Source: a virus. Taken from it: DNA of 57,992 bases. How positions within the stretch are numbered: position 1 is the stretch's first letter; every line of letters starts with the position of its first letter. Below, piece after piece: positions 1 to 57,992 of the stretch. A program made the position numbers and the translations under genes. The notes under the pieces are model-generated. The model had not been told where the DNA came from. It was given only the letters and a program-made list of their open reading frames with translations, and made no database searches. Location: IMG/VR virus record IMGVR_UViG_3300033141_003442; one strand, given 5' to 3'.

Positions 1-114
1 AAAATGATTGCTGGTATGTCAGAAAGAGAAAAAGAAGAGCTTGCACCAATTATTGAAGATTATGAAAGATATAAAAAATCTTTAGAACCAGGGTTAAAAT
101 CAGTTCCATTATCG
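1..114. repeat. Terminal duplication: window 1-114 is identical to 57879-57992 (circular or terminally redundant assembly overlap)
   Basis: Direct comparison of the first 114 nt with the last 114 nt; an ORF continues in frame across the junction. Confidence 0.9.
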
Positions 115-2096: not shown

Positions 2097-5000
2097 ATGC
2101 CATTAACCCCAGTTGACTATGACCCTTTTAAAGAAGAAAAACAATCTTCAAAAAAATTAACAAAAAAACAAAAAGCAAAATTAGTTCCCGTTGATTATGA
2201 CCCTTTTGCTTCTGAAAAAAAGCAACCAGAAATCAGTGCTGAAAAAGGTATCCCACAATACCTCATCCCTTTTAGTAAATACCTAGGTATAGAACCAACT
2301 TATGTAAAACCAGGCTCATTTCTTGGTAATTTATTGGCTGTGCCTCATGCCTTTTTTGAAGCTGGAACGACTGCATTTGAAAGCCCTTATTATATTTTAA
2401 AAGGGCTAGGGAAAATATTACGATTACCTTCTTTAGAAAAAGCTGGCGAATGGGGGATTAAAGGACTTGAACCTACAAGAAGACATCATGAATTAATGCG
2501 TAAACAATTATATGTGCCACCTACTTCACCAACAGCACGATTAGCCCATTCCATTAGTAAAAAAGTAGCAGAAGCAATAGGAAGTTTTGCCCGTCCTGAT
2601 TTGCCTGTTTTAGTAGCTAGTCCTACAGCTTATGGTTTTCTTAGTGGATTAGAAACATTAGGAGCAGGAGCTCCACCTACACAAGCTTTAACAGCAGGCA
2701 TACATGGAATGATAGCAGGTAAAACTTTTGAAGCTGTTAGAGGATTAAGTCCTATGCAGGCACTTACTAGAGCCGGGGCTGTTGGAGCTACACCTGAAGT
2801 TGCAAGAGGTCTTATTACTGGTAAACCAGAGCAAATTGGTAAAGGAATAGAGGAAGGACTAAGCCTTGGTATATTTTCTGCATTGGCTACAATAAAAACT
2901 CCCTTAGCAAGAGAAATATATAGAAATAAAGTAAAAGCAGGCGTTCCAAGAGAAAAAGCATTACAAACAGCCTCTTTAGTAGAAGAAACAATTAAATCCT
3001 TAGATATTGATAAAGCTAAAAGTCTACCTCTTAAAGAAAAAGAAATACAAAAAGTAGAGAAAATCATTAGGGAGATAAGTAAACAAATAGAAGATTTACC
3101 AGAAGTTATAAAAGGTAAACGGGGATATAAGACAGAGAAAGGAGCTAAAATAGGGTTAAGATTGTTTGCTAAAGAAAATAAATTACCAAAAGATATGGAT
3201 TTAACCCAACATTACAATTTAGAGAAGGACGAAGCAGGTAATTTTGTTTGGAGAAAGATAACTGAAAAGCCAACGGAAATTAAACCTGCAATTAAACCTA
3301 AAGAAGAAGTAAAGCCTCCAGAGGTAGAAATTCCTAAAGAAGAAAAACCTCCAGCAAAAGAAATCAAAGAAAAGGTTGAAGAAAAGCCTAAGAAAGCCAA
3401 ACCTTATGAAAGCGTTGAACCTGGCAGTGCAGAATGGATGAAAATCTGGAAAGAGCATCCAGAGCTACAAAAGGAGATGGCTGAGATACGCCAGAAACAA
3501 ATAGTTGAGGAAGGTAAGAAAGAAGAAGCTTTACCAGAGGCTAAACCTGAAAAAGAACCTCCCAAAGAAAAACCTCCAGTAGTGCCTTTAACTAAGACAC
3601 TTTATGAAAATTCCTATCCCATTGAATTAAGTAAGGCCAGTGAGGTGTTTCCTAAACATAGACTTGGCGTTGATTATGTAGTTAAGCTGGTGGATAAAAA
3701 TACAGGTAAGGTTACTTGGGCTAGTTTAAGTGAGAAAAGGGCAAGAGAGTTATTTCCACGGTCTTTTGAAGAAAAGGCTAAGGAAGTTCCTAAAGCAGAA
3801 GCTGAATGGCAACCTGTAAAGGATTACAGCAAAGAAATAACTGAAGGAACTCATGTCAAATGGAAATATAAAGGCAAAGAGGGTGAAGGAATAGCCACAG
3901 GCAAGACAGGAAGGCGTAAGACAGGATTTGTTTATCATAAAGTTAAAACTCCAGAAGGCAAAACAAAATATATGCCTTGGACACCTAAAGCAGAATATTG
4001 GATTAAGGCAGAGAAAAAAGTTAAACCTGTTAAAGAAACAAAGGCAGAGGTTAAAGAAAAAGAACCTATAATAGCTATTTCTAAACGTGAACCTAATTTA
4101 CAATTTGAAATTGACCGTATAGAAGGAAATAAATTTATTGTAAAACGTCCTGTTATTATAAGCACATTGAAAGGAGAAGAAGGGAAAATAGTAGAAACAC
4201 CTGATAAATATTTAATAGGGCGAGAATATCCCGTTGAGAATTTTAGATTTGTAACACCCAAAGAATATGTAGCAGAAGTAAAAACAAAAGAAGCAAAAAT
4301 AAAAGCAGAAAGAGAAGCACAAAGGGAAACAGAACGAAAAAAACAGGAAGAAATTAAACAAGCACTTAAAGCCAAGCCAGTTACAGATAAGTATTATATT
4401 TATTTAAAGGACAAAGGTTTTGAGGAAGTTGAGAAAGCCTATCCTGTTAAAATCTCAGGGTTTGAAAAGTATGATTTATTTGCCCATAAGGTAGGTAAAA
4501 AATGGAAAGTTTCTGAAAGTAAAACTGGTGTTGCTATAACAAAAGCCCTTCCAACCCGTAAAGAAGCAATAAAACAAGCTACTGAAATTTTAAATAGGCA
4601 TAAAGAAAAATCTGATGAAATGATAGAAGATGCTATAGCCTATGCGTTATCTCAGACAGGAATTTCTCCACGATATAAGCCTATTTCTAAAGAACCTACA
4701 ATAACTCAACCCAAAGAAAATTTATATGAAGTGCGTCATCCAGAGAAAAAGACATGGTATCAAATCAAAGAAGACCCAGAAACAGAGCAATGGAGAGTTA
4801 TAAAGTTTGAGCCTTATGAAACTATACATGAAGGACAAAAAGTAACTGTTAATAAAGCTACTGAAACAAAGTTTTTTAAAACTTTAGAAGAAGCAAAAGA
4901 TTTTGCTCAAAAAGGAATTATAGGCAAGCCAGTAGAAGTAAAAATAAGTTCTTTTGTAAAAGATGCTTATCTGGAAGAATATGGCAAAGAAAAAGGCACA

Positions 5001-9544: not shown

Positions 9545-10815
9545 ACCCCTTTTTTACGGAAGGGGCTTTATCAGTGAGGAATAATCCTCCTGATTTAGGG
9601 CAGGCTTACAAACTGCCCAGCCCAAGAAGGAACTTTTGCCTTCAAGGGCAAAGATAGCAAGATTTTTGGAGGCATTGTAATCAGCATGGACTTGATAGCC
9701 ACAAGCCTTACAACAAAAAACAGAACCATTACGATTAGAAGATTGAATATGGCCACACTTACTACATCTTTGAGAACTGTATTTAGGGTCAACAAACCAA
9801 ACATCAATACCCTCTTCAAGTGCTTTGTATTGAATATAATTTGGGAGTTTAGAAAATGCCCAGAGAGAAACTTTATGTTTTTCAGCTTTTCTCCATTTTT
9901 TTACACTTCCTCTAATACTATTAAGATTTTCCATAGCAATTACTTGAGCACCAATCCTTTTTGCCTTCTCAACAATTTGCCGAGAAATATTATGCAAAAC
10001 CCAGTTAACAAAGCGGTTTTCTCGCCCACTCATTCTCTTAAGCAAGAGATGGGCAGAGCGAGTGCCTTTCTTTTGGATTTTGCTTCTCCGTTCGGCAAAC
10101 TGTCTTCTTTTATCATTAAGCATTCCTGCTTTAAAAAATTTGCCTATAGAGGTTACAGCAATATTCTTAACTCCCAAATCAACTCCCATAACAGTTTCAG
10201 GTTTTCTAACAAGAGCGGGTTTAATTATTGTAATATTAAGAAAGAAATCTTTGCCATTATAAGAAAGTGTAGCAGTCCTAAATTCATAATTTGTATTATC
10301 AAGTATTTTCTTTTGATAATCTCCAAGAAGATATTTGGCTTTTACTCTACCATTTACAGTAGAAAAAGTGCATTCTCTATTTTTAATAGTTACAGTTCTT
10401 TTATCAAGTTGAATTGCAGAAAAAGGCCTGAAGGTTGGTTTAGTTGCTTTTCTCTTTTTACTCCAATTGATAACACAAAGTTTAACCGCATCACAAGCTT
10501 TATTCCGAGCAGAACATATCAAATTAGCTTGAAGATTGGTTTGCTTTTTAAGTGGATAGTAAACAAGTTTATGGAGTTTAGATTTATTGATTATCTTCTT
10601 TTCAGGCTTCCATGCTTCATTTATGCAAAAATTAAGAGCAAAATTATATTGTCTAAAAGTTTCAAGAACATCTTGCTTTCTTTCTTGTGGAATATCCAGT
10701 TTTACTTTACAAGTCTTGATTATTTTTCTCATCGTGGTAAAATTATATCATGTTTATCTGAAATGTCAAGAAAGGAGTAAAAAGGCAATTCCTCCCCACC
10801 CTTACGGATGGGGTC
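9545..10815. mobile_element. Putative IS200/IS605-family (IS1341-like, tnpB-only) insertion bounded by similar subterminal hairpins
   Basis: Hairpin CCCCTTTTTTACGGAAGGGG at 9546-9565 and CCCCACCCTTACGGATGGGG at 10794-10813, same orientation, flanking tnpB; no tnpA present. Confidence 0.45.
9554..10732 (-). CDS. tnpB: TnpB-like RNA-guided endonuclease (IS200/IS605 OrfB family)
   Basis: 392 aa; RuvC-I (GVDLGVKNIAV), RuvC-II (IAMENLNS), zinc finger CSKCGH...CCKACG, RuvC-III (HADYNASKNLA). Confidence 0.85.
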   Translation of the reverse strand: MRKIIKTCKVKLDIPQERKQDVLETFRQYNFALNFCINEAWKPEKKIINKSKLHKLVYYPLKKQTNLQANLICSARNKACDAVKLCVINWSKKRKATKPTFRPFSAIQLDKRTVTIKNRECTFSTVNGRVKAKYLLGDYQKKILDNTNYEFRTATLSYNGKDFFLNITIIKPALVRKPETVMGVDLGVKNIAVTSIGKFFKAGMLNDKRRQFAERRSKIQKKGTRSAHLLLKRMSGRENRFVNWVLHNISRQIVEKAKRIGAQVIAMENLNSIRGSVKKWRKAEKHKVSLWAFSKLPNYIQYKALEEGIDVWFVDPKYSSQRCSKCGHIQSSNRNGSVFCCKACGYQVHADYNASKNLAIFALEGKSSFLGWAVCKPALNQEDYSSLIKPLP

Positions 10816-15212: not shown

Positions 15213-15704
15213 ATGATTAAATTTCTTGCATACAAAGGCACTGATTGGCTGGCTAAAGTAATTAAGTGGGAAACTCAGTCAGATTATTCCCACATAGCAT
15301 ATCTTTATGATGACAACCATATAATAGAATGTTGGCCTGAGCATTGGTATCAATTGTTGAATGTAAGGTGGAATATCAGGCCAATGTTTAAAGGATACAA
15401 AAAGGGTGATGAATACGAGATATGGGGCTTAGAGGTTTCGGACGGACAAGCTTGTGTTATTCATAATTTCTTTCTAGGGCTTGTAGAGAAGAAAGCCAAA
15501 TTTGATTATGTAGCTGGATTTGGATTATTTACAAAATGGAAGAAAGAAAAAATAGGACAATATTTTTGCAGTGAAGGATGTATTACTCCACTTGTAAGAA
15601 TATTTGATTGGACACATATTAAGCCTTGGAAAGTAACGCCTGAAAATTTCATACAAATTATTCAGGCTTGTGGTGGGAAGTTAATAGAAAAAGGTAAAGT
15701 TTAA
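15213..15704 (+). CDS. Putative permuted papain-fold hydrolase (YiiX/YaeF-like); assignment tentative
   Basis: His-containing motif (SHIAYLYDD) precedes a Cys motif (QYFCSEGC), consistent with permuted NlpC/P60-like enzymes. Confidence 0.35.
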   Translation: MIKFLAYKGTDWLAKVIKWETQSDYSHIAYLYDDNHIIECWPEHWYQLLNVRWNIRPMFKGYKKGDEYEIWGLEVSDGQACVIHNFFLGLVEKKAKFDYVAGFGLFTKWKKEKIGQYFCSEGCITPLVRIFDWTHIKPWKVTPENFIQIIQACGGKLIEKGKV

Positions 15705-16405
15705 TGTCAAATTCTAACAAGCCATATAGAGTTGTCTATTTTTCTGGTGGTAAAGATAGCACTGCCATGTTAATAGTGTTATTGGAAAACCAAATACCTT
15801 TTGATGAAATAATTTTTAATGATACTGAGGTAGAATTTCCAGAAATATACACACATATAAATTTAGTTCAAAAGAAGCTTGAGGTTAAAATAACATATTT
15901 AAAACCTAAGAAACATTTTGAATACTGGATGTGTGAACACAGAACTAGAAAAGGGAATATTGGTTATGGATGGCCTCGGATAAAATTGCGATGGTGCACT
16001 AAACTTTTTAAGCAACGAGCAGAAAGTTCATACTTTAAGAAAAAACAATTAAAAAATATCCGTAAACTAATAGGAATAAGTACAAGTGAAATAAATAGAA
16101 TGAAAAAATATTATAAGCAAGAAATTTATCCTCTTGTAAAATTTGGAATTGACAGCCAAGAAGCGTTAAAAATATGTTATCGTTATGGTTTTGATTGGAA
16201 TGGATTATATGAGAAATTAAGCCATACAGGCTGTTTTTGGTGTCCATTTCGGAGACTGAGAGAATTAGAAAATATTTATCGTTTTTATCCTCATTTATGG
16301 GTAAAAATGATGGAACTAGATGGTAAGTGTTGGAATAAATTTAGAGAAAATTGGACTTTGAAAGAATTAGAAAAACGATTTAAAAACACAGTTTATCTTT
16401 TTTAA
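15704..16405 (+). CDS. PP-loop ATP-pyrophosphatase family protein (PAPS reductase-like)
   Basis: N-terminal PP-loop SGGKDS (VVYFSGGKDSTAM); C-terminal Cys cluster; about 230 aa. Confidence 0.6.
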   Translation: MSNSNKPYRVVYFSGGKDSTAMLIVLLENQIPFDEIIFNDTEVEFPEIYTHINLVQKKLEVKITYLKPKKHFEYWMCEHRTRKGNIGYGWPRIKLRWCTKLFKQRAESSYFKKKQLKNIRKLIGISTSEINRMKKYYKQEIYPLVKFGIDSQEALKICYRYGFDWNGLYEKLSHTGCFWCPFRRLRELENIYRFYPHLWVKMMELDGKCWNKFRENWTLKELEKRFKNTVYLF

Positions 16406-17075: not shown

Positions 17076-18764
17076 TTATTTACCTATCCAATGTCTTCTC
17101 TCTTTTTCTTGGTTTTGTAATTCTCTCCATCTATCTTTTCTTTTTTTAGCCATTTCACGGCGTTCAAAATAAGGGAATAAATATAAAATTATATATCCAA
17201 TACAATCCATGCCATGAGCTAAATATTCATCTCTTTCCCAAGTTAATTCATTAGTCTTTTTAGTTTTAAGATATTGGAAACATCTATGAATATAAGCACA
17301 ACTTTCTGTTGAAATAAAATTTTCTACAGGGTTATCAGGAATTTCATCATTTATCAAAAGCCCAGGTTTCCCATTATATTCATCAGTTAATTTATTTCTT
17401 ATTTGCACGGTCATCCGTTCTTTTCTGTTAGGAATAGGTATAACAGGAGATAAGCCAGCAGCTATTAAAGCTTCTACACTCATTCCTTTATCGGTTCTTT
17501 GTTGTCCTGCTTCATCTGCAAGATAAATAAATGATGCTGCTTTTCCAAACCATTGTTTTAATTTACTTTTTACATATTTAGCAAAGGGAAATATATCTAT
17601 TTGTTTACCAAGAATACATTTTAAAATAAGAAGACAATCATCATCATCTACTTGAGCACATACCACGCAGGGATGTAGAAAGCCATAATCTATGCCTACA
17701 TATACAGGTTTTTCTTTAATATATGTAAGCTGTCTTATATGCTTAAATTTATCATATTGGGGAAAATGTTTGCCTGATTGTGGAATATCAAAAGTTCCTA
17801 ATACATTTATAGCAAAGTCAATAGCTCCTCTTTGTTGTTTTTCTCTTTCCACATCCTTTTTAGACATCTCATCATCATATCTCCAATCAAACTCATAAAT
17901 ACTAGGTAACTTTAAATTTGGATTTGTCCTTAACGGTTGTCTTTTACTGAATAATTGATAGAAATAATAAGAAGTATAATCATTATCAGCAGGTATAAGT
18001 CTTTCTCTAGCAGGAGTTCCACAAGCTATTCTACATGATACTGTATCAGTTAATGTTGACCATGCTGCGGCGTCTGTATGATACCATAAAGTATATTCAT
18101 CTAAAAAGGCTGCTCTTGCTCTACCACCAGCTCCAAAATCTGCTGTATTTGCCTTTCCTCTAATAGATACTCCAGTTTCAGGATTGATTAAAAGGCGTGT
18201 CCTGTCATGTTCTCTCCATTTAAATCCTTTAGGTAATAACCAATCAGGTAGTGATTTCAATAAATATCTTACTTTTTCAAAAAGACTATCCATATCTCCT
18301 CTTCTATCTACTGTTTCTTCATTCACTGAACCAAGAAGAAAATCACTAGGAAAGAATGGATTAAGAAAAAAGAAAAGAAAAACTCCTGCTACTGTAAAAG
18401 TAAATCCGATACTTCTTTTTTTAAGAGCTATTAAATCGCCTCCATATAATATTCTTTCAACAATAGCTGGGACTAATATTTCTCTTTGATATTTCCATAA
18501 AATATATGGTCTATGAGGACTATTAGGATGTCTTACTGGACAATATATATAAAGAAAACAATCAAAGAAAAAGATTATATCTTTAAAAGTATATAATTTA
18601 ATATCCTGTCTGAATTTACTATCTTTCCTTGCTTTTTTGAGAAGTTCTCTTCTAAATTCTAAATTTGCCTTATATTCTATTGGATATTTTATCTTATTTT
18701 TAGGAAAAACAGCATTTAAATGTTCAATAGAGGGTGCAAACTCAGAGAATTTTTGGGATTTCAT
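17076..18764 (-). CDS. terL: Terminase large subunit
   Basis: 562 aa; ATPase motifs (LWKYQREIL, GGDLIALKKRSIGFT, Walker B-like AAFLDEYTLW); nuclease-domain acidic motifs (VGIDYG, LADEAG, HGMDCIGY). Confidence 0.75.
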   Translation of the reverse strand: MKSQKFSEFAPSIEHLNAVFPKNKIKYPIEYKANLEFRRELLKKARKDSKFRQDIKLYTFKDIIFFFDCFLYIYCPVRHPNSPHRPYILWKYQREILVPAIVERILYGGDLIALKKRSIGFTFTVAGVFLFFFLNPFFPSDFLLGSVNEETVDRRGDMDSLFEKVRYLLKSLPDWLLPKGFKWREHDRTRLLINPETGVSIRGKANTADFGAGGRARAAFLDEYTLWYHTDAAAWSTLTDTVSCRIACGTPARERLIPADNDYTSYYFYQLFSKRQPLRTNPNLKLPSIYEFDWRYDDEMSKKDVEREKQQRGAIDFAINVLGTFDIPQSGKHFPQYDKFKHIRQLTYIKEKPVYVGIDYGFLHPCVVCAQVDDDDCLLILKCILGKQIDIFPFAKYVKSKLKQWFGKAASFIYLADEAGQQRTDKGMSVEALIAAGLSPVIPIPNRKERMTVQIRNKLTDEYNGKPGLLINDEIPDNPVENFISTESCAYIHRCFQYLKTKKTNELTWERDEYLAHGMDCIGYIILYLFPYFERREMAKKRKDRWRELQNQEKERRHWIGK

Positions 18765-18811
18765 ATATATTTTTTATATTAAATCGTTCTTTTTGTCAAT
18801 TTACCATTGCC

Positions 18812-18840
18812 TTGACAAAATTATGATTATAATTTATCAT
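18812..18840 (+). promoter_or_regulatory. Sigma70-like promoter TTGACA-N17-TATCAT upstream of the portal gene
   Basis: TTGACA at 18812-18817, 17-nt spacer, TATCAT at 18835-18840; lies in the divergent terL/portal intergenic region. Confidence 0.4.
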
Positions 18841-18857
18841 ATCCATAATAAATTCTT

Positions 18858-20774
18858 ATGAGAAAAAAGAAAGAAATAGATGTTATTTTAGAACGATATG
18901 AAGAAACAAAGTCTGCCTATAAGGATTTTTGGAAAAAGGCTGAAGAAAGCTACGGCTTTGTTTATGGCAACAAATATCAATGGTATGTAGATGGAAGCGA
19001 CAAATACTATAAAGATTTAAAAGATGCAGAGCGCCCTACTTTATCTATAAATAGAATACAGGCCAAATTAAATCTCCTTGATGGTTATTTTCTTACTACC
19101 AGATATGATATTAAATTCCGTCCACAACAAAAGAAAGACCAAGAAATAGTTGATATAGCTAATCAATTATATAAATTAGTTTGGTATCAAATAAAAGGCG
19201 ATGCGATTGAAGGAGAAGTTTTTTATAATGGCATAATTTCAGGAGAGCATTATTTTTATATTTATCCTGATTATTCTAAAGATATTATTCGTGGTGATGT
19301 AGGTCTTTGTGCTTGTTCTCCATGGGAGATAATGTTTGACCCACGAGCAAAACGATATGATAAAACAGATGCTGAATATGTCTTTAGGTCTGTATGGCTT
19401 CCCATAGAAACAATTAAACGAAGATGGCCTCAAAAAGCCAGACAAATAGATAAATTAGTTAAAGTTTTAACTATTATCTCTACTGAAGGATTTGAAGCTC
19501 TTAAACAAAGCGTTCATATTACACATCCTTACGATAGATGGAGAGATGCTTTATCACGGCCTTATAATATTAAAGCAAATGAAGGAAGAATAGATGAGTA
19601 TTGGTATAAAACTTGGGAAAAAGTTGAAATTATTGTTGATGCTATTACAAAAAAAGTCATTGATGAAAGTGAAATAGACAAAGAAACCTTGGAAATTAGG
19701 AAAAAAGCTGGAGATATAGAAGTTTTAACCAGATATATTCCTAAAGTAAGAGTTAAATATTTGTTTGGAGATATAGAGCTTAGTGATGAACCTTCTCCTT
19801 GGACAAAAGGAGAATTAGCAAAGAATTTCCCTTTTGTTCCTTTTACAATATATAAAATATATTTACCTACAGAAAAGAAATATTTAATCTGGGGTGCTGT
19901 AGAAGTTCTTAAAGATGTTCAAAGAGAGATAAATAAAAGGCATAGTTATCTTGTAGAGGCTATGCTTAATGCTCCTTATAGTGTTTTAATATATGAAGAC
20001 CAAACTTTTACTCCTGAAAGTGAAGAAGCTTTAAGCAAAAAAGGTTTCCGCCCAGGTATGTCTTTAAAAACTTATCCAGGGAAAATAAATAGTTATAAAA
20101 TTGAAAACACTGTGCAATTCCCTGTAGGTTTATTGGAATTAGAAAATTTAGCTCTTAAAGACGCTGATATAGTTTCTCCTATTATTCCGCCTTCTGGTAA
20201 AGTTAAATCTGGTTCTGCAATGCTTCAAGAAGAAAGAATTATGCTTACAGATAAAGCAAGAATATTTAATAATTTCAAAGATACAAAAATACTTTTAGCT
20301 AGATATTTATTTAATGCTATTCAGCAAACTTATGATTATGAGAAAACTTTTAAGGCTGTTGACAGCGATGAAGAATATACTATAAATCAAGTAGTTTTTG
20401 CTACCAAAACAGAGCCTCATCCACTTACTGGTTCTCCTGTTGAAACTGTTGTTAGAGATAAATTTGGCAGGCCTGTAATAGAAAAAATAGTAAATGATAT
20501 TACAAATGAAGCTCTTGATTTTGATATTATTGCTACTGAAGTTAATGCTTCACCAAGTTATAGATTAGCAGTAGCCAATGATTTATTAAAAATAATTCAG
20601 ACAACGCCAAATCCGATTTTTATTAAAATGTTGTTTGAATATCTAGATTTACCTTCCCATATTAAAAAAGAATTAGAGCAACAAATGAATGCTCAAACGC
20701 AGCAAGCATTACAACAACAAAATTTGCCACAAAATATAAGACAGTTACAAACCCCATTCAAGCAAGGAGGATAA
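18858..20774 (+). CDS. Probable portal protein
   Basis: 638 aa, size and position next to terL; general resemblance to portal proteins; not verified by search. Confidence 0.5.
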   Translation: MRKKKEIDVILERYEETKSAYKDFWKKAEESYGFVYGNKYQWYVDGSDKYYKDLKDAERPTLSINRIQAKLNLLDGYFLTTRYDIKFRPQQKKDQEIVDIANQLYKLVWYQIKGDAIEGEVFYNGIISGEHYFYIYPDYSKDIIRGDVGLCACSPWEIMFDPRAKRYDKTDAEYVFRSVWLPIETIKRRWPQKARQIDKLVKVLTIISTEGFEALKQSVHITHPYDRWRDALSRPYNIKANEGRIDEYWYKTWEKVEIIVDAITKKVIDESEIDKETLEIRKKAGDIEVLTRYIPKVRVKYLFGDIELSDEPSPWTKGELAKNFPFVPFTIYKIYLPTEKKYLIWGAVEVLKDVQREINKRHSYLVEAMLNAPYSVLIYEDQTFTPESEEALSKKGFRPGMSLKTYPGKINSYKIENTVQFPVGLLELENLALKDADIVSPIIPPSGKVKSGSAMLQEERIMLTDKARIFNNFKDTKILLARYLFNAIQQTYDYEKTFKAVDSDEEYTINQVVFATKTEPHPLTGSPVETVVRDKFGRPVIEKIVNDITNEALDFDIIATEVNASPSYRLAVANDLLKIIQTTPNPIFIKMLFEYLDLPSHIKKELEQQMNAQTQQALQQQNLPQNIRQLQTPFKQGG

Positions 20775-31878: not shown

Positions 31879-32044
31879 TTATTAAACTCCTCCATATTTT
31901 GTTTCTGAGCGAGGTTTAATGGCTTAGACAATGTTTTTATATGTCTTTTGGGTTGAAACTAGCTCAGCGGTTAAATATGTGCGTCTGAGAGCGGATGAGA
32001 TGTTGTTTAGATACCCGATTTTAAATTGGCTTTTCATTATCTTA

Positions 32045-32073
32045 ATGATAAAACAAGTAATTTATTTTGTCAA
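32045..32073 (-). promoter_or_regulatory. Sigma70-like promoter TTGACA-N17-TATCAT (minus strand)
   Basis: Plus-strand tgtcaa 32068-32073 and atgata 32045-32050, 17-nt spacer; part of a 35-bp element also present at 39935-39965. Confidence 0.45.
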
Positions 32074-32607
32074 GGGTCTAATTTTTTTAAGTATAATTTT
32101 TTTCCCTTCCTGTGTTGTCCTGATGCCTGTGATAAAGTAATTAACCTTTCTTAACTGTTTCCACCATTTCGTTGCTATTTCACTGTCTGCCATGGTTATT
32201 GAATGAACCTTATTGCTGTCATAGGCACTTATCACTCGCAATAGTGCATTATATTCCATATCATTAGGGTTAGGTAGTTTGCAATTTTTTACTTTAAATC
32301 TATTATAAGGGTTTGGCTGAGGTTCTTCTGGATGTTTGTGGTGATATTTAATTCTAATTTTATTTATGACTTGTTGTGAGGATAATATACCTTTTTTTAA
32401 CTTATCATATAAAAACAAACAGAAAGCTGCAAAACAATTTTTCTTGGCTCTAAGCTTGCAAAGGTTTTCCACTGCCTCAATGAATTGCAGGTCTGTATAA
32501 TCATCACTAATAGTAATCAACCTTATCATTTCTTTCTCATGAACCACTACATCATTTTTTTTGGCAATATCCTTAAAAATTTCAAGCCTGCTGTCTGAGT
32601 TAGTCAT
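32062..32607 (-). CDS. Hypothetical protein (181 aa)
   Basis: ORF with SD GGAGG. Confidence 0.5.
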   Translation of the reverse strand: MTNSDSRLEIFKDIAKKNDVVVHEKEMIRLITISDDYTDLQFIEAVENLCKLRAKKNCFAAFCLFLYDKLKKGILSSQQVINKIRIKYHHKHPEEPQPNPYNRFKVKNCKLPNPNDMEYNALLRVISAYDSNKVHSITMADSEIATKWWKQLRKVNYFITGIRTTQEGKKIILKKIRPLTK

Positions 32608-39665: not shown

Positions 39666-39911
39666 TTATATAAAAACTTTCAATCTAATTCCATCCGTTC
39701 CATATTTTGAATACCTAAAATTTTTACACCAAATAATTCCTGATTCCATAATTCCAATAAAGTCTTCAATACCATCCTCATCTAAAGCAAAAATAAAAAC
39801 AGGGATTACAGTGTAGGATACTGGGATAATGAAGAATTCTTTAGAAAGAGCTGGATAATAATGACAAAATACGCCTTCCTCATTAATTGTAATCAATTTT
39901 AATTCATCCAT
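39666..39911 (-). CDS. Hypothetical protein (81 aa), first gene downstream of promoter 39935-39963
   Basis: ORF with SD GGGAGGAG; consensus promoter immediately upstream. Confidence 0.5.
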   Translation of the reverse strand: MDELKLITINEEGVFCHYYPALSKEFFIIPVSYTVIPVFIFALDEDGIEDFIGIMESGIIWCKNFRYSKYGTDGIRLKVFI

Positions 39912-39934
39912 CTTTCTCCTCCCTTTTTTTCTTT

Positions 39935-39963
39935 ATTATAAAACAGTTAAATTATTTTGTCAA
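39935..39963 (-). promoter_or_regulatory. Consensus sigma70 promoter TTGACA-N17-TATAAT (minus strand)
   Basis: Plus-strand tgtcaa 39958-39963 and attata 39935-39940 with exact 17-nt spacer. Confidence 0.6.
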
Positions 39964-39996
39964 GGGTAAATTTAAATTAAATCCCCAAAAACTATC

Positions 39997-40025
39997 TTGC
40001 ACCTTGTATGCTGTTAGGTTATAAT
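39997..40025 (+). promoter_or_regulatory. Divergent plus-strand promoter TTGCAC-N17-TATAAT driving gene 40075..40350
   Basis: TTGCAC 39997-40002, 17-nt spacer, TATAAT 40020-40025; back-to-back with the minus-strand promoter. Confidence 0.5.
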
Positions 40026-40074
40026 CTTCTTTTAAGTATTCTACTGTATGCTTCTTATGGAGGGATAGTAAATC

Positions 40075-40350
40075 ATGCCAAAACGGCTTGTTTACCACAC
40101 CAAAACAGAAGAAAATAAAATCGTAACCCTCTATCCGCCAAGGCTTCATTCTTTTGAACAGATTTTGAATTACATTGCATTCATTTGCAAAGGAGTAGAG
40201 AAAGGTTTGATTTCTGAAACTCAAGCCACCACAGTTAAGGAGTTGATTAGCATTGCAATAGAGGCCGTCCGTAAGAAACAAGAATTTGAGAAGTATGATG
40301 AAGTAGTAAGGTTCAGAGAGAAAGATGAAGAGGAAGACGAGGAAGAATAA
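40075..40350 (+). CDS. Small protein with acidic C-terminal tail (EEEDEEE); lone plus-strand gene inside the minus-strand block
   Basis: SD GGAGGG 9 nt before ATG; own promoter; the antisense minus ORF 39952..40374 looks spurious. Confidence 0.5.
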   Translation: MPKRLVYHTKTEENKIVTLYPPRLHSFEQILNYIAFICKGVEKGLISETQATTVKELISIAIEAVRKKQEFEKYDEVVRFREKDEEEDEEE

Positions 40351-40373
40351 ATTTATATTGGCACTATTTAGCA

Positions 40374-40706
40374 TTATTTATCTTCCCTCCAAATTACCCA
40401 AACATTTGTTTTGACTGTATATAAAATAGTAATTCGCTTTATCTTAGCCGTTTTACATCTCTGCTTAACAAAATATTGTGCTATTTTTATTGCATCAATA
40501 GGAGAAAGGTTAGGTTTAAGGGAAATAGAAGTTTTATAAGTGTTTCTGGTAATTTTTCTAGTGGAAACCCAGTTTGCAGGCTCACTATTTACTATTTGGT
40601 CTTGGGATGGAAAGTTATGGGGCAATTCTATTTCTTGCCAGATATGGTAACCTATAGCAACTGAGGCAATCCAGAGAGCAATTAGTAAGATAATTAAGTC
40701 TTTCAT
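40374..40706 (-). CDS. Membrane-anchored hypothetical protein (N-terminal TM helix)
   Basis: N-terminus MKDLIILLIALWIASVAIGY. Confidence 0.45.
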   Translation of the reverse strand: MKDLIILLIALWIASVAIGYHIWQEIELPHNFPSQDQIVNSEPANWVSTRKITRNTYKTSISLKPNLSPIDAIKIAQYFVKQRCKTAKIKRITILYTVKTNVWVIWREDK

Positions 40707-41144: not shown

Positions 41145-41765
41145 CTAGCCTCCTTTTTCATCTAAGCAAACTAATAAACCTTTCATTTTTTGCTCCGTTA
41201 TAGTGTTAACGACTTCAAACTTAATAAATTTGTTATATTCATCTTGATAAATAGAAATAGTAACGGGTTTATTTTTCTCATCATTAAATTTTTCAACTTG
41301 AGTGGCTATTTCTTTTAAGAGCTTTGCATTTACAGTTAGTGTTATAATTGGATTTTCTTTAGGATATGCTTTATCTGTATCAGGATATGAAATATCTTTG
41401 TTTTTTATGGACATTGTAAAGACATTATCTAAATCTGTTGTTACCAAGATTGTCTTATCTTCTTTTTGAGATACCATGACATTTTCAAGAATAGGAAGAG
41501 GGCTTTTAGGGATTAACTTTCGAATTTTTGTTACTTCATTTTTGCTAAGATAGAAATCTCGCTCTTGTTTATATTCAAGCCCAGTTTCAGGATATTCCTC
41601 ATAAGGTAAATTTGGCCTTGTTACTTCTATTAATAAATACCTATCAGTAACAACTGTTTTTTCTTTAGTCACTTTAATAACTTGTGAAATATCAAAGTCA
41701 TCTGAACTGTAATCACTTTCCTTTTCAAGTAAATTTGCTATTTGAAGATTGTATTTATTTAGCAT
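41145..41765 (-). CDS. Hypothetical protein (206 aa)
   Basis: ORF with SD. Confidence 0.5.
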   Translation of the reverse strand: MLNKYNLQIANLLEKESDYSSDDFDISQVIKVTKEKTVVTDRYLLIEVTRPNLPYEEYPETGLEYKQERDFYLSKNEVTKIRKLIPKSPLPILENVMVSQKEDKTILVTTDLDNVFTMSIKNKDISYPDTDKAYPKENPIITLTVNAKLLKEIATQVEKFNDEKNKPVTISIYQDEYNKFIKFEVVNTITEQKMKGLLVCLDEKGG

Positions 41766-41789: not shown

Positions 41790-42311
41790 TTATAAATAAA
41801 ATTCTTTTCCCAAAACATACTGCAATGCTTCAGCAATATGGGTTGTCTTGATATTATCTTCTTTGTCTATTTCGCTAATAGTTTTAGCAACTCTTAAAGT
41901 TGTCTCTAATTCAGAAGGAAGCATCCCTTTGGTTTTATATGCAGTTTCCAGAAGATTTAACCCTTCTTTATCTATTTTGCTTTTATCAAATTCAAGATAC
42001 TCAAAGTTAAAGCAGTTAATTGCTGTAAAAGTCATATCCGTTTGAGGAAGATTTATTTGATACTTTTTAATTTCTTCTGGCGTGCATTTACATATTCTAT
42101 TTGTGGAATTGAAGTTACCGCAAGGGCAAGGTTTTTTGACATAAATGATTTCTTCCAAAAGGTATCTTTGTTCTTCAGGAATGGTCTTTTTTAATCCGAA
42201 TACTACTTGTTGAATGAAATATACATCACTCGTAATAATCAATAATGAATGTTTGCCATTTAAAGCAACATCTAAAACTCTTAAAAAATGTGGTGAATTA
42301 AATTTAATCAT
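41790..42311 (-). CDS. ComM/YifB (Mg-chelatase-like AAA+) C-terminal-domain-like protein; tentative
   Basis: CPCGNFNSTNRICKCT Zn-binding-like motif and C-terminal helix TTHIAEALQYVLG. Confidence 0.35.
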   Translation of the reverse strand: MIKFNSPHFLRVLDVALNGKHSLLIITSDVYFIQQVVFGLKKTIPEEQRYLLEEIIYVKKPCPCGNFNSTNRICKCTPEEIKKYQINLPQTDMTFTAINCFNFEYLEFDKSKIDKEGLNLLETAYKTKGMLPSELETTLRVAKTISEIDKEDNIKTTHIAEALQYVLGKEFYL

Positions 42312-46347: not shown

Positions 46348-47352
46348 ATGGCAGATTGGAAACCTGGGAGTTCAATGTATGCAAAGAGGTATGCCACATC
46401 TACCTTTATTGAATATAAGACTGGTATTTGGTGGGACAAGCATGGATATGTGGGGAAGGATGAGAACAATGTAATACAGTTAATAGAGGATTTCACGAGG
46501 GAACCTGGTAATAGTATGAGGTTTTATTTGACTATGGTGCCTGAAGGAGACCCGATTGTTGATGATGATACCTTAGAAGGCAACGAGATGAATATTACCA
46601 ATTACTATCAGGACGTAACGCTTCATGAGTATCGTGGTGGTATTCGTCTTTATGGTAATATGGAAGAGAAGGCGGTTGCCTTTAATATGAGGGAGACAGC
46701 GAGGAGAGTATTAGGAATTTGGAAGAGGCAGGAAACGGGTGATGCTATATTTAGTGCATTAGCCAGTTCTCCGACCAAGGTTATATATGGTGGGGATGCT
46801 ACTTCTACTTCTACTTTAGAGTCTAGTGATTTATGCAATCTTAAGCTTTTATTGCATGCTGCTACTTATGCGGAAAGTGTAGCTGACCCTCGTATTCCTC
46901 CGTTAATAATAGATGGTGAGGAGAAGTATATAGTTATTTTGCACAAGCATTGTTTATCTGATATGCAGTTATATGATAGTGATTTTCGTGCATTAGGGCA
47001 GAGTGTATATCAGAGAAATAGTGATAATCCTTTGATTAAGAGGGCTGCTTTTGTTTACAATAATCTTATTGTTTATTCTACTGATAAGATACCCACTGCT
47101 GATAATTGGGGTTCTGGCGGTGATGTTCATGGAGCTACCAATTTATTGCTTGGTGCTCAAGCAGCTCTTTTAGGTAGGGGCAAGACCAAAGGTGGAGTTA
47201 TTCCTCAATTTGATTGGAGAGAGCAGACTTGGGATTATGGGCATAAATATGGTATTGCTGTTGGTGAAACCAGAGCATTAGCCAAGACTGTTTTTAATTC
47301 CAAGGACTTTTCTACTGTAGCTATTAGGACTGCTGCTAATAGTTATGCTTAA
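46348..47352 (+). CDS. Probable major capsid protein
   Basis: 334 aa; very strong SD (TATAGGAGGTAAAGAAAG-ATG); first gene after the late promoter; size typical of capsid proteins; not verified by search. Confidence 0.45.
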   Translation: MADWKPGSSMYAKRYATSTFIEYKTGIWWDKHGYVGKDENNVIQLIEDFTREPGNSMRFYLTMVPEGDPIVDDDTLEGNEMNITNYYQDVTLHEYRGGIRLYGNMEEKAVAFNMRETARRVLGIWKRQETGDAIFSALASSPTKVIYGGDATSTSTLESSDLCNLKLLLHAATYAESVADPRIPPLIIDGEEKYIVILHKHCLSDMQLYDSDFRALGQSVYQRNSDNPLIKRAAFVYNNLIVYSTDKIPTADNWGSGGDVHGATNLLLGAQAALLGRGKTKGGVIPQFDWREQTWDYGHKYGIAVGETRALAKTVFNSKDFSTVAIRTAANSYA

Positions 47353-57572: not shown

Positions 57573-57992
57573 ATGCCAGCACCAGTAGCTGCAGCAGGAA
57601 TAATTGGAGCGAGCACTTTAGGTGCAGCAGCTTTGAGTAAAGGAGGCCAAAAAGCAGGTAAAGTTCCTAGACCTTCAGCAGAAGAAAGGTCACTTCAAAA
57701 AGCTTTATTACCTTTATTATTATCTTCTTTATATGAAAAACCTGAAGATGCTTTACGTGCTCCTAAAAGTTGGACACAAGAAGAATGGGAAGCTTATTTA
57801 AGGGAAACAGGTATCCCTGTTGATTTAGTTAAATCAGGTATTTTAAGTAAGTATAAAAAAACAATTGATGAGATTGAGAAAATGATTGCTGGTATGTCAG
57901 AAAGAGAAAAAGAAGAGCTTGCACCAATTATTGAAGATTATGAAAGATATAAAAAATCTTTAGAACCAGGGTTAAAATCAGTTCCATTATCG
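57573..57992 (+). CDS. N-terminal portion of the junction-spanning ORF (continues at window position 115-480)
   Basis: ATG 57573 with SD AGGGGGTGA; open to the window end, in frame with ORF 4..480 through the duplicated 114 bp. Confidence 0.6.
   Translation, partial: MPAPVAAAGIIGASTLGAAALSKGGQKAGKVPRPSAEERSLQKALLPLLLSSLYEKPEDALRAPKSWTQEEWEAYLRETGIPVDLVKSGILSKYKKTIDEIEKMIAGMSEREKEELAPIIEDYERYKKSLEPGLKSVPLS

What the first reader, a model, noticed from the sequence alone, without database searches (positions are those of the whole stretch)
39930..40350. Back-to-back consensus promoters with a lone opposite-strand acidic-tail gene splitting the minus-strand block
A consensus minus-strand promoter (TTGACA-N17-TATAAT, 39935-39963) and a plus-strand promoter (TTGCAC-N17-TATAAT, 39997-40025) are arranged divergently within about 90 bp. 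The plus promoter drives a single 91-aa gene ending in EEEDEEE, convergent with upstream minus-strand genes. This resembles a genetic switch or an insulated regulator/anti-defence gene (acidic DNA-mimic-like tail). No integrase was found, so a lysis-lysogeny switch is not implied.
Basis: partly seen in the sequence, partly recalled or inferred. Interest (0 to 1): 0.5.

Follow-up and report, generated by a model that had tools for sequence, protein, structure and literature searches.

The report
Optional small-gene cassette beside strong promoter
A small add-on gene of unknown function, with its own promoter, sits backwards just upstream of a strong conserved promoter in a complete 58-kb phage genome. 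Sister phages keep that promoter but lack the gene, so this is an ordinary optional phage gene and not a genetic switch.

Summary
A perfect TTGACA-17-TATAAT promoter lies at 39963..39935 (-). A TTGCAC-17-TATAAT site lies at 39997-40025 (+), followed by a Shine-Dalgarno sequence and a 91-aa ORF (40075-40350) ending in EEEDEEE. This is the only plus-strand gene in the 23.6-kb minus block of a complete phage genome (114-bp terminal repeat).

The ORF is a real gene: sense dN/dS is 0.06-0.16, while the fully overlapping 140-aa antisense ORF gives about 1.

Four sister phages have the flanking 110-aa and 81-aa genes only 77-104 bp apart. They carry the same consensus promoter and no 91-aa gene. The strong promoter therefore belongs to the phage backbone. 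The gene and its own promoter (about 410 bp) form an optional, moron-like cassette at an insertion hot spot.

The protein family is tiny. It comprises two phage groups and one integrase/primase island, where it is translationally coupled to a YbjQ-like gene next to an Mrr nuclease. It matches no Pfam, PHROG, NCBIfam, PADLOC or PDB entry.

The core is basic (pI about 9.2) and only the tail is acidic, so it is not a DNA mimic. The switch reading is not supported. Function is unknown; my best guess is a small antitoxin-like binder or regulator.

The parts
39935..39963 (-). Perfect sigma-70-type promoter TTGACA-17-TATAAT heading the 81-aa gene and the recombination operon. It is a backbone element, not part of the cassette.
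   Evidence: 12/12 match. Only exact match in the window, 0.08 expected. Conserved in relatives both with and without the 91-aa gene. A 33/38-identical twin lies at 32077..32040.
39916..39923 (-). Shine-Dalgarno sequence GGGAGGAG of the 81-aa gene, whose ATG is at 39911..39909.
   Evidence: Read from the sequence. Conserved in all relatives.
39964..40373 (.). Optional cassette of about 410 bp: AT-rich spacer, plus-strand promoter, leader, 91-aa gene and 23-bp tail. In sister phages without the gene, about 30-60 bp of unrelated sequence occupies this position.
   Evidence: Presence/absence alignment A7. tblastn map of flanking genes in L039-L050. Junction sequences.
39997..40025 (+). Candidate promoter of the cassette, TTGCAC-17-TATAAT (-35 matches 3 of 6, -10 matches 6 of 6).
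   Evidence: Not significant on its own. The hexamers are conserved and the spacer varies in the cassette-bearing relatives. The group-2 and island homologues also have their own sigma-70-like promoter within 70 nt of the gene.
40005..40052 (+). Two copies of TGTATGCT (40005-40012 and 40045-40052), one in the promoter spacer and one in the leader. Candidate auto-operator, unproven.
   Evidence: These are 2 of only 6 copies of TRTATGCT in the genome. Only partly conserved in relatives.
40059..40064 (+). Shine-Dalgarno sequence GGAGGG of the 91-aa gene.
   Evidence: AGGGATAG is invariant in alignment A1.
40075..40350 (+). 91-aa protein-coding gene. Predicted N-terminal beta-hairpin, helix 27-42, long helix 48-90, and a poly-acidic tail.
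   Evidence: Codon-position pattern 7/7/26. dN/dS 0.06-0.16. AF2 pLDDT 68.5. Homologues P0001-P0005 and P0010.
39952..40374 (-). 140-aa antisense ORF in the exact codon-on-codon frame. Not a gene.
   Evidence: Antisense dN/dS is about 1. The ORF is broken in group 2. It stays open only because the sense gene has no TTA, CTA or TCA codons.
40374..40706 (-). Flanking backbone gene (110 aa, N-terminal hydrophobic helix), the last gene of the upstream minus operon and convergent with the cassette.
   Evidence: Relatives found in 12 IMG/VR contigs, 8 of them without the cassette.
39666..39911 (-). Flanking backbone gene (81 aa), the first gene driven by the consensus promoter.
32040..32077 (-). Twin copy of the consensus promoter (ACCCTTGACAAAATAAATTACTTGTTTTATCATTAAGA).
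   Evidence: 33/38 identical including the spacer. Further family members occur in relatives.

Best explanation
The region is an optional, independently transcribed gene cassette of the kind phage biologists call a moron. It is inserted in reverse orientation at the junction between two early minus-strand operons of a complete, integrase-less 57.9-kb phage.

Shown:
- The perfect minus-strand promoter is a backbone element. It heads the 81-aa gene, PD-(D/E)XK nuclease, YopX and RecT operon, and it is kept with its spacer in sister phages that lack the 91-aa gene.
- The 91-aa gene is a real gene under strong purifying selection.
- The gene brings its own promoter-like site and ribosome-binding site.
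- Its base composition and codon usage are atypical for this phage.
- It is present in some members of the lineage and absent from others.
- The junction is an insertion hot spot.
- The same gene family occurs in a second phage group in the same back-to-back position, and in an integrase/primase island as the first gene of a translationally coupled pair with a YbjQ-like gene.

Inferred:
- Host sigma-70 RNA polymerase transcribes the cassette from TTGCAC-17-TATAAT, independently of the phage operons. Because group 1 has no terminator, this transcription is convergent with read-through from the upstream operon.
- The product is a small, probably dimeric protein with a basic helical core and an acidic tail, and it acts by binding a partner.
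- My most likely specific guess (about 0.3) is an antitoxin-like neutraliser or autoregulator. In the island it would control the YbjQ-like partner or its operon. In the phage it would be an orphan copy serving counter-defence or competition between mobile elements.

The 'back-to-back promoters' are a by-product of where the cassette landed, not a purpose-built switch.
For: Cassette polymorphism:
- L043, L044, L045/46 and L048 have the 110-aa and 81-aa-type genes 77-104 bp apart. They carry CCTTGACAAAA(C/A)AATTTA..T.TTTTATAAT..GGGAGGAG and have no 91-aa gene.
- Two near-genome-length contigs, of 61 and 59 kb, lack any homologue.
- L047 and L049 carry other small genes at the same junction.

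Real gene:
- Codon-position pattern 7/7/26 and dN/dS 0.06-0.16.

Own expression signals:
- The -35, -10 and SD are conserved while the spacer varies.
- Group 2 has TTGACT-16-TGcTATTAT. The island gene has TGgTATAAT.

Atypical composition:
- GC3 is 0.38, against 0.19-0.31 in all but one of the 14 genes compared (one small neighbour reaches 0.37).
- There are no TTA, CTA or TCA codons (P about 0.005 from this genome's codon usage).

Family distribution:
- Three clusters only among about 15 billion proteins, and none in GTDB representative genomes.

Island context:
- Mrr_cat, then P0005, then YbjQ_1 with an 11-nt overlap, then primase, HTH_17 and integrase.
- Cassette-bearing phage L021, cassette-less phage L043 and island L009 all come from sample 3300021509/Ga0190304.

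Definition:
- Morons are obvious additions with differing GC content and their own promoter and terminator (PMC3594210).
- A precedent exists for strong sigma-70 promoter cassettes flanking non-essential genes in hyperplastic regions (PMC2839356).
Against: - There is no terminator in the window, so the 'own terminator' part of the moron definition is not met.
- The classic moron concept concerns prophages, and this phage shows no lysogeny genes.
- The plus-strand promoter is weak by consensus and not statistically distinguishable from chance. No transcript data exist.
- The antitoxin-like guess has no direct support. YbjQ-family proteins are not known toxins or defence effectors (no PADLOC hit; the literature searches listed no paper whose title or abstract concerns this). 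No partner gene exists in the phage.
- The island host flank is 41% GC against 33% for the phage, so a shared host is not established.
- The fold is of modest confidence (pLDDT 68) and matches nothing specific.
- The direction of the polymorphism, gain or loss, is not resolved.
Confidence: 0.65

Rival explanations
1. Genetic switch or dedicated regulator. The 91-aa protein is a DNA-binding repressor or activator that controls the adjacent perfect promoter and its twin at 32 kb, in the manner of CI/Cro at PRM/PR or phi29 p4 at A2b/A2c/A3.
For: - It is divergently arranged 33 bp from the strongest promoter in the locus. The same holds in group 2, where the neighbouring promoter is again 12/12.
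- The core is basic (pI 9.2-9.7).
- The predicted beta-hairpin plus two helices loosely recalls ribbon-helix-helix proteins.
- The consensus promoter family has a conserved spacer in several copies.
- Short repeats lie in its own promoter and leader.
Against: - Sister phages keep the identical promoter, spacer included, without the gene. The promoter does not need the protein.
- No HTH, RHH or other DNA-binding family hit appeared even at E = 10.
- No operator motif is shared between group 1, group 2 and the island.
- No integrase or other lysogeny gene was found.
- In the island the gene has no divergent partner promoter.
Confidence: 0.15
2. Host-takeover or replisome/RNA-polymerase binder. 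An early protein uses its acidic C-terminal tail to dock on a host or phage DNA-metabolism protein, in the way acidic tails of SSB-type proteins recruit partners.
For: - A poly-acidic tail is kept in both phage groups, with variable length of 4-8 D/E residues.
- The gene lies between clamp-like and Mg-chelatase-like genes on one side and recombination genes on the other.
- Its early-type sigma-70 promoter fits an early role.
Against: - The tail is not conserved in the island homologue.
- There is no OB fold; the model is helical.
- The gene is dispensable in sister phages.
- There is no homology to any known RNAP or replisome inhibitor.
Confidence: 0.12
3. DNA-mimic anti-restriction protein of the Ocr/ArdA type.
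For: The acidic EEEDEEE tail. The only distant homologue sits beside an Mrr-type nuclease.
Against: - Net charge is only -5, and residues 1-70 have pI 9.2 with charge +2.7.
- The island homologue has pI 9.2 overall.
- There are no Pfam or PDB hits to DNA-mimic families.
- The acidity is a disordered tail, not a surface array.
Confidence: 0.03
4. The cassette works mainly at the RNA level. Convergent transcription from the plus-strand promoter, with no terminator, interferes with read-through from the upstream minus operon and produces antisense RNA to the 110-aa gene.
For: No terminator lies on either strand between the convergent genes in the window. In cassette-less phages the upstream operon runs straight into the consensus promoter region.
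Against: Strong purifying selection on the protein sequence shows that the protein itself matters. Group 2 has a strong hairpin that stops the upstream operon before the cassette, so interference is not a conserved feature.
Confidence: 0.04
5. The real gene is the 140-aa minus-strand ORF (39952-40374), which would continue the minus block without interruption. Its ATG overlaps the stop of the 110-aa gene as TAATG.
For: The ORF is open in all five aligned group-1 sequences and starts 1 nt inside the upstream stop codon.
Against: - Antisense dN/dS is about 1, and substitutions pile up at its first codon position.
- The ORF is broken in group 2.
- It runs through the intergenic promoter region.
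Confidence: 0.01

Closest known systems
Morons (for example HK97 gene 15 and the lambda and HK022 add-on genes; Cumby et al. 2012, PMC3594210)
   Same: An extra gene sits between two genes that are adjacent in related phages. It has its own promoter, atypical base composition and spread between elements, and it is non-essential.
   Different: Group 1 has no terminator. The host phage shows no lysogeny module, so expression 'from a repressed prophage' does not apply. Function is unknown.
PeSL regulatory cassettes and hyperplastic regions of T4-type phages (Arbiol et al. 2010, PMC2839356)
   Same: Repeated, strongly conserved sigma-70-type early promoters (here CTTGACAA.A.AATT.AACT.T..TATAAT, two copies in the window and up to three in relatives) flank small non-essential ORFan genes. 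These sites coincide with insertion, deletion and replacement differences between close relatives.
   Different: No conserved stem-loop accompanies the promoter copies here. Recombination between copies was not demonstrated. The phage lineage is unrelated (portal about 23% identical to any cultured phage).
Lambdoid PRM/PR (cI/cro) divergent-promoter switch
   Same: Two divergent promoters with start sites about 100 bp apart, and a small gene reading away from a strong early promoter.
   Different: There is no HTH protein, no tripartite operators, no partner Cro-type gene shown and no integrase. The strong promoter persists unchanged in phages lacking the small gene.
Type II antitoxins and phage-borne orphan antitoxin or anti-toxin proteins (for example T4 Dmd against RnlA/LsoA; recalled from my own knowledge, not tested here)
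   Same: The island homologue is a small first gene translationally coupled to a second gene in a defence-rich island. The phage carries a solitary copy.
   Different: The partner, a YbjQ-like protein, is not a known toxin. No sequence or fold match to any antitoxin family was found. Neutralisation is untested.
DNA-mimic anti-restriction proteins (Ocr, ArdA)
   Same: A small phage early protein with a run of acidic residues.
   Different: The core is basic. The acidity is limited to a ~10-residue tail that is absent in the island homologue. There is no homology.

Membership tests
Moron / accessory transcription unit | An extra gene lies between two genes that are adjacent in related phages. 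| tested here: met
   The 110-aa and 81-aa-type genes are 77-104 bp apart in L043, L044, L045/46 and L048, against 462 bp with the gene in the window.
Moron / accessory transcription unit | Own promoter. | tested here: inconclusive
   A conserved TTGCAC-17-TATAAT site plus SD lies upstream, and homologues in two other contexts also have their own sigma-70-like sites. The site is not above chance on its own, and no transcript data exist.
Moron / accessory transcription unit | Own terminator. | tested here: not met
   No hairpin beyond the shuffle expectation at 40330-40400 on either strand (z -0.6 and -0.5). Group 2 has a hairpin (z -4.4), but its U-tract serves the opposite strand.
Moron / accessory transcription unit | Base composition differs from the surrounding genes. 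| tested here: met
   GC3 is 0.38, against 0.19-0.31 in all but one of the 14 genes compared. There are no TTA, CTA or TCA codons although TTA is the main Leu codon (P about 0.005). The difference is modest: the whole cassette is 35% GC against 33% in the flanks.
Lambda-type lysis-lysogeny switch | A repressor with a recognised DNA-binding domain. | tested here: not met
   No Pfam, NCBIfam or PHROG DNA-binding family hit at E up to 10 for any of the 6-7 family members tested.
Lambda-type lysis-lysogeny switch | Repeated operators between or over the divergent promoters. | tested here: inconclusive
   Only an 8-bp direct repeat (TGTATGCT, two copies), partly conserved. No motif is shared among the three contexts.
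Lambda-type lysis-lysogeny switch | Lysogeny functions (integrase or partition system) in the genome. | tested here: not met
   The genome is complete (114-bp terminal repeat). No integrase or recombinase was found among the scanned ORFs of about 140 aa and longer. The only transposase-like gene is a TnpB. Small ORFs were not all scanned.
Lambda-type lysis-lysogeny switch | The regulated promoter depends on or co-occurs with the regulator. | tested here: not met
   The same promoter is present without the gene in 4 or more sister phages.
DNA-mimic anti-restriction proteins (Ocr/ArdA) | A strongly acidic protein overall, with surface-wide negative charge. | tested here: not met
   pI is 5.16 and net charge -5.3 overall. 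Residues 1-70 have pI 9.17 and charge +2.7. The homologue P0005 has pI 9.19.
DNA-mimic anti-restriction proteins (Ocr/ArdA) | Sequence or fold similarity to a known mimic. | tested here: not met
Ribbon-helix-helix (Arc/MetJ/CopG) regulators and antitoxins | A match to an RHH profile. | tested here: not met
   No RHH family hit at E up to 10, and no RHH chain in the PDB profile search.
Ribbon-helix-helix (Arc/MetJ/CopG) regulators and antitoxins | A beta-alpha-alpha fold forming an intertwined dimer. | tested here: inconclusive
   The monomer AF2 model has a beta-hairpin at 7-19, helix 27-42 and helix 48-90, with pLDDT 68. The first helix is longer than in canonical RHH proteins. No dimer model was possible.
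Type II toxin-antitoxin pair (island homologue P0005 with the YbjQ-like gene) | A small first gene translationally coupled to a second gene. | tested here: met
   An 11-nt overlap in six independent contigs.
Type II toxin-antitoxin pair (island homologue P0005 with the YbjQ-like gene) | The second gene is a toxin neutralised by the first. | not testable with these tools
   The match to YbjQ_1 (PF01906) has E = 5.5e-12. There is no PADLOC hit, and the literature searches listed no paper whose title or abstract links the family to toxins or defence.
PeSL-like mobile promoter cassettes | Multiple near-identical strong sigma-70 promoters in the early region. | tested here: met
   Copies at 39967..39930 and 32077..32040 are 33/38 identical. 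Relatives carry 2-3 copies.
PeSL-like mobile promoter cassettes | An associated stem-loop terminator, and recombination between copies. | tested here: not met
   No hairpin lies next to either window copy. Recombination was not tested.

The most novel reading that the evidence does not exclude
The 91-aa family is a new kind of antitoxin or neutraliser. In the satellite-like island it would hold a YbjQ-fold effector in check, forming a previously unrecognised two-gene defence module beside an Mrr nuclease. Some phages of the same community would then have captured an orphan copy, expressed from its own early promoter, to disarm that module. That would give both a new defence system and its phage-encoded antidote.
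Probability: 0.12. Interest if true: 0.65.

Novelty: new member of a known kind. Interest (0 to 1): 0.3.

Why it matters
It matters mainly as a correction. A striking pair of back-to-back promoters around a lone reversed gene looks like a switch. Comparison with sister genomes shows it is an optional add-on gene that landed next to a backbone promoter.

The gene family itself is an uncharacterised ORFan shared only by two uncultivated phage groups and a satellite-like integrative island. That sharing makes it a reasonable candidate for a role in conflict between mobile elements. The pairing with a YbjQ-fold protein is a testable lead for a new small defence or TA-like module. Nothing here is yet surprising to a phage genomicist.

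Tried and rejected
Family and structure searches that found nothing useful:
- Pfam, PHROGs, NCBIfam and PADLOC scans of the protein and its homologues gave no hits.
- A PDB profile search gave only a chance CheA segment at E about 0.7.
- tblastn against INPHARED phages found nothing. blastn of the region found nothing.
- AF2 with a single sequence and with a 6-sequence alignment gave pLDDT 67-68.
- An exhaustive phmmer search over 1.8 billion representatives added only P0005, plus spurious repeat proteins.
- Two scans of GTDB genomes found nothing, so the host is unknown.
- Rfam gave no match in the window.

Ideas tested and dropped:
- Operator hunt. No inverted repeat of note was found. No motif is shared among group 1, group 2 and the island. 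TRTATGCT is not enriched genome-wide.
- Ribbon-helix-helix idea, from the pattern VTLYPP-helix-G-x-x-S-helix. Profiles did not support it.
- Antisense 140-aa ORF as the real gene. Rejected by dN/dS.
- A YbjQ-like partner in the phage. None was found. The searches for relatives of the island YbjQ-like protein returned only the protein itself or nothing.
- Cassette-less relatives of group 2. None is available in IMG/VR.
- Relatives of the 81-aa gene. The pattern scan found none, although tblastn on fetched loci did.
Full report
**1. What is in the sequence**

The window carries an exact 114-bp direct repeat at its two ends. It is therefore a complete, circularly assembled genome of 57,878 bp with 33% GC.

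The genome has two strand blocks.
- The plus block runs from about 45.4 kb through the ends to 21.75 kb. It holds the structural genes: major head protein 46348-47352, portal 18858-20774, and tail and fibre proteins.
- The minus block runs from about 45.4 kb down to 21.75 kb. It holds small early ORFans, a clamp-like and a Mg-chelatase-like gene, a PD-(D/E)XK nuclease, YopX, RecT, a replication initiator and an amidase endolysin.

No integrase or recombinase was found. The only transposase-like gene is a TnpB. The phage is far from anything cultured. There was no DNA match in INPHARED, and the portal is about 23% identical to the best hits.

**2. The observation**

The minus-strand promoter TTGACA-17-TATAAT at 39963..39935 matches 12 of 12 positions. 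It is the only exact match in the genome, against 0.08 expected. It sits 24 nt upstream of the ATG of the 81-aa gene, with GGGAGGAG as the ribosome-binding site.

The plus-strand site TTGCAC-17-TATAAT at 39997-40025 is present, but its -35 matches only 3 of 6 positions. As a pattern it is no rarer than chance. It is followed by GGAGGG (40059-40064) and the ATG at 40075 of a 91-aa ORF ending in EEEDEEE. That ORF stops 23 bp from the convergent 110-aa gene. This is the only plus-strand gene inside the 23.6-kb minus block.

**3. Which strand codes**

A 140-aa minus-strand ORF (39952-40374) overlaps the 91-aa ORF completely, in the exact codon-on-codon antisense frame. Its ATG overlaps the stop of the upstream 110-aa gene.

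Five homologous sequences settle the question.
- Variable sites fall 7/7/26 on positions 1/2/3 of the plus-strand codons.
- Nei-Gojobori dN/dS is 0.06-0.16 for the plus frame and 0.9-1.2 for the antisense frame.
- The antisense ORF is broken in the more distant phage group.

The 91-aa gene is real and the antisense ORF is not. The antisense frame stays open only because the gene contains no TTA, CTA or TCA codons. That is unusual here, since TTA makes up about half of Leu codons in this genome (P about 0.005). It goes with the highest GC3 among the 14 genes compared (0.38; all others but one are 0.19-0.31, and one small neighbour reaches 0.37).

**4. Relatives of the protein**

Searches of about 15 billion proteins found only three clusters.
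- Group 1: 83-98% identical, from IMG/VR and JGI contigs of the same sample series.
- Group 2: P0010, 87 aa, 69% identical.
- Island group: P0005, 106 aa, 48% identical.

Nothing was found in 185,579 GTDB species genomes.

There is no hit in Pfam, PHROGs, NCBIfam, PADLOC, PDB sequences or annotated phages.

Residues 1-70 are basic (pI 9.2-9.7). The acidic tail, 4-8 D/E residues long, is kept in both phage groups. The island protein lacks it and has pI 9.2 overall. This rules out a DNA mimic in the Ocr/ArdA sense.

**5. Contexts of the relatives**

*Group 2.* The anatomy repeats. The gene is a lone plus-strand gene in a minus block, placed back-to-back with a promoter that is again 12/12 and is the only 12/12 site in the 15-kb locus. 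It has its own TTGACT-16-TGcTATTAT promoter. The flanking genes differ from those in the window. A strong hairpin (z = -4.4) ends the upstream minus operon.

*Island.* The gene follows an Mrr_cat nuclease and has an extended -10 promoter. It overlaps by 11 nt a YbjQ_1-family gene (E = 5.5e-12). The island also carries a Toprim/DUF3987 primase, an HTH_17 protein and a tyrosine integrase, which is a satellite-like layout. The YbjQ-like gene has no counterpart in the phage. The searches for its relatives returned only the protein itself or nothing.

**6. The decisive comparison**

I searched IMG/VR with the flanking 110-aa protein and found 12 contigs. Four carry the 91-aa gene. In L043, L044, L045/46 and L048, the 110-aa gene is followed after 77-104 bp by the 81-aa-type gene and then the 75-aa zinc-ribbon gene, with no 91-aa gene.

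Their short intergenic region contains the same promoter with the same spacer and the same ribosome-binding site: CCTTGACAAAACAATTTAGTTATTTTATAATTAAAGAAAAAGGGAGGAG.

The alignment shows a clean presence/absence block. About 410 bp in the window (39964-40373) replaces 30-60 bp of unrelated sequence.

L047 and L049 carry other small genes at the same junction. Two of the cassette-less contigs are 59 and 61 kb long, and no homologue was found in them.

Three conclusions follow.
- The perfect promoter is a backbone element that works without the 91-aa protein.
- The gene with its promoter is an optional cassette.
- The junction is an insertion hot spot.

The consensus promoter also belongs to a small family of near-identical promoters. 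A twin lies at 32077..32040, 33/38 identical including the spacer, and relatives carry 2-3 copies. This recalls the strong sigma-70 promoter cassettes that flank non-essential genes in the hyperplastic regions of T4-type phages (PMC2839356). No stem-loop accompanies the copies here.

**7. Interpretation**

The best-supported description is a moron-like accessory transcription unit. It is an obvious addition relative to sister genomes, it has its own promoter, its composition is atypical, and it is shared horizontally (definition in PMC3594210). The terminator criterion is not met in the window, and there is no evidence of lysogeny.

The back-to-back promoter geometry is a consequence of where the cassette sits. 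Because group 1 has no terminator, transcription of the cassette should converge with read-through from the upstream operon. This is inferred, not shown.

What the protein does is unknown. I can offer no more than an antitoxin-like binder or autoregulator (about 0.3). The basis is the translationally coupled pair in the island, the basic N-terminal part with a long C-terminal helix, and the solitary copy in phages from the same samples. Cassette-bearing L021, cassette-less L043 and island L009 all come from 3300021509/Ga0190304.

A dedicated regulator of the adjacent promoter is less likely (0.15), because the promoter is unchanged in phages lacking the gene and no operator or DNA-binding domain is detectable. 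The DNA-mimic, RNA-only and antisense-gene readings are essentially excluded.

**8. Verdict**

The 'switch' and 'DNA mimic' interpretations are not supported, while 'accessory, possibly defence-related gene' remains open. This is a new member of a known kind, an optional gene cassette in a phage early region, from an uncharacterised ORFan family. Interest is modest. The YbjQ-paired island homologue is the one lead worth an experiment.

Noticed in passing
window 1-114 and 57879-57992: An exact 114-bp direct terminal repeat. The window is a complete, circularly assembled phage genome of 57,878 bp.
   Followed up: yes
window 9554-10732 (-): A TnpB / IS605 OrfB-type gene (OrfB_IS605 plus Cas12f1-like TNB domains) is inserted on the opposite strand inside the structural block. 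A second TnpB occurs in the group-2 relative L013 at 2129-3100, so these elements seem active in this phage population. No omega-RNA or element ends were looked for.
   Followed up: partly
window 18790-18840: A second back-to-back promoter-like pair: TTGACAAAAA (-) at 18799..18790 and TTGACAAAAT-N13-TATCAT (+) at 18812-18840. It lies in the 93-bp gap between a terminase-large-like gene on the minus strand (17076-18764) and the portal gene (18858-20774).
   Followed up: no
window 32040-32077 (-): A near-duplicate of the consensus promoter (33/38 identical including the spacer). Its -35 overlaps the end of the 181-aa gene, and a leader of about 160 nt precedes the next gene (31878). Relatives carry further copies (L016 at 4842, 11114 and 12774). 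This is a promoter family with a conserved spacer, CTTGACAA.A.AATT.AACT.T.
   Followed up: partly
L047 3279-3630; L049 3117-3653 (junction equivalent to window 39964-40373): The same gene junction carries other small inserted genes in sister phages. L047 has an ORF of about 85 aa downstream of the promoter. L049 has an ORF of about 69 aa upstream of the promoter and a truncated 110-aa gene. This marks an insertion hot spot.
   Followed up: partly
L005-L010 (for example L009 87-7540): An integrative, satellite-like island carries an Mrr_cat nuclease with an N-terminal hydrophobic segment, the P0005 homologue, a YbjQ_1-family gene, a TubC_N-like gene, a Toprim/DUF3987 primase, an HTH_17 protein, a 243-aa protein and a tyrosine integrase. 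A SocA_Panacea (PanA-type) antitoxin pair follows. The P0005 promoter and leader hold three copies of TGTG(G/C)TATA.
   Followed up: partly
window 40075-40350: The gene has no TTA, CTA or TCA codons, although TTA makes up about half of Leu codons in this genome (P about 0.005). It has the highest GC3 among the 14 genes compared. This may reflect foreign origin. As a side effect it keeps a 140-aa antisense ORF open.
   Followed up: yes
L011 7021-7047 (-): Group-2 phages have a strong hairpin (z = -4.4) between the cassette and the convergent gene. Its U-tract is on the minus strand, so it terminates the upstream operon rather than the cassette transcript. Group 1, including the window, has nothing comparable.
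   Followed up: yes
window 41145-41765 (-) and 41790-42311 (-): A short, 206-aa protein with weak similarity to the N-terminal domain of the DNA polymerase III beta clamp, and a 173-aa protein matching only the C-terminal parts of Mg-chelatase/ComM-type ATPases. These may be a reduced clamp and an ATPase remnant, located just upstream of the cassette.
   Followed up: no
window 15704-16405 (+): A PAPS-reductase-like gene (phrog_424, E = 1e-39) lies within the plus block. Group-2 relatives carry ThiF-like and metallophosphatase genes nearby.
   Followed up: no
samples 3300021509 / Ga0190304: A cassette-bearing phage (L021), a cassette-less sister phage (L043) and the island carrying the distant homologue (L009) all come from the same metagenome. 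The island's host flank is 41% GC against 33% for the phage, so a shared host is not established.
   Followed up: partly
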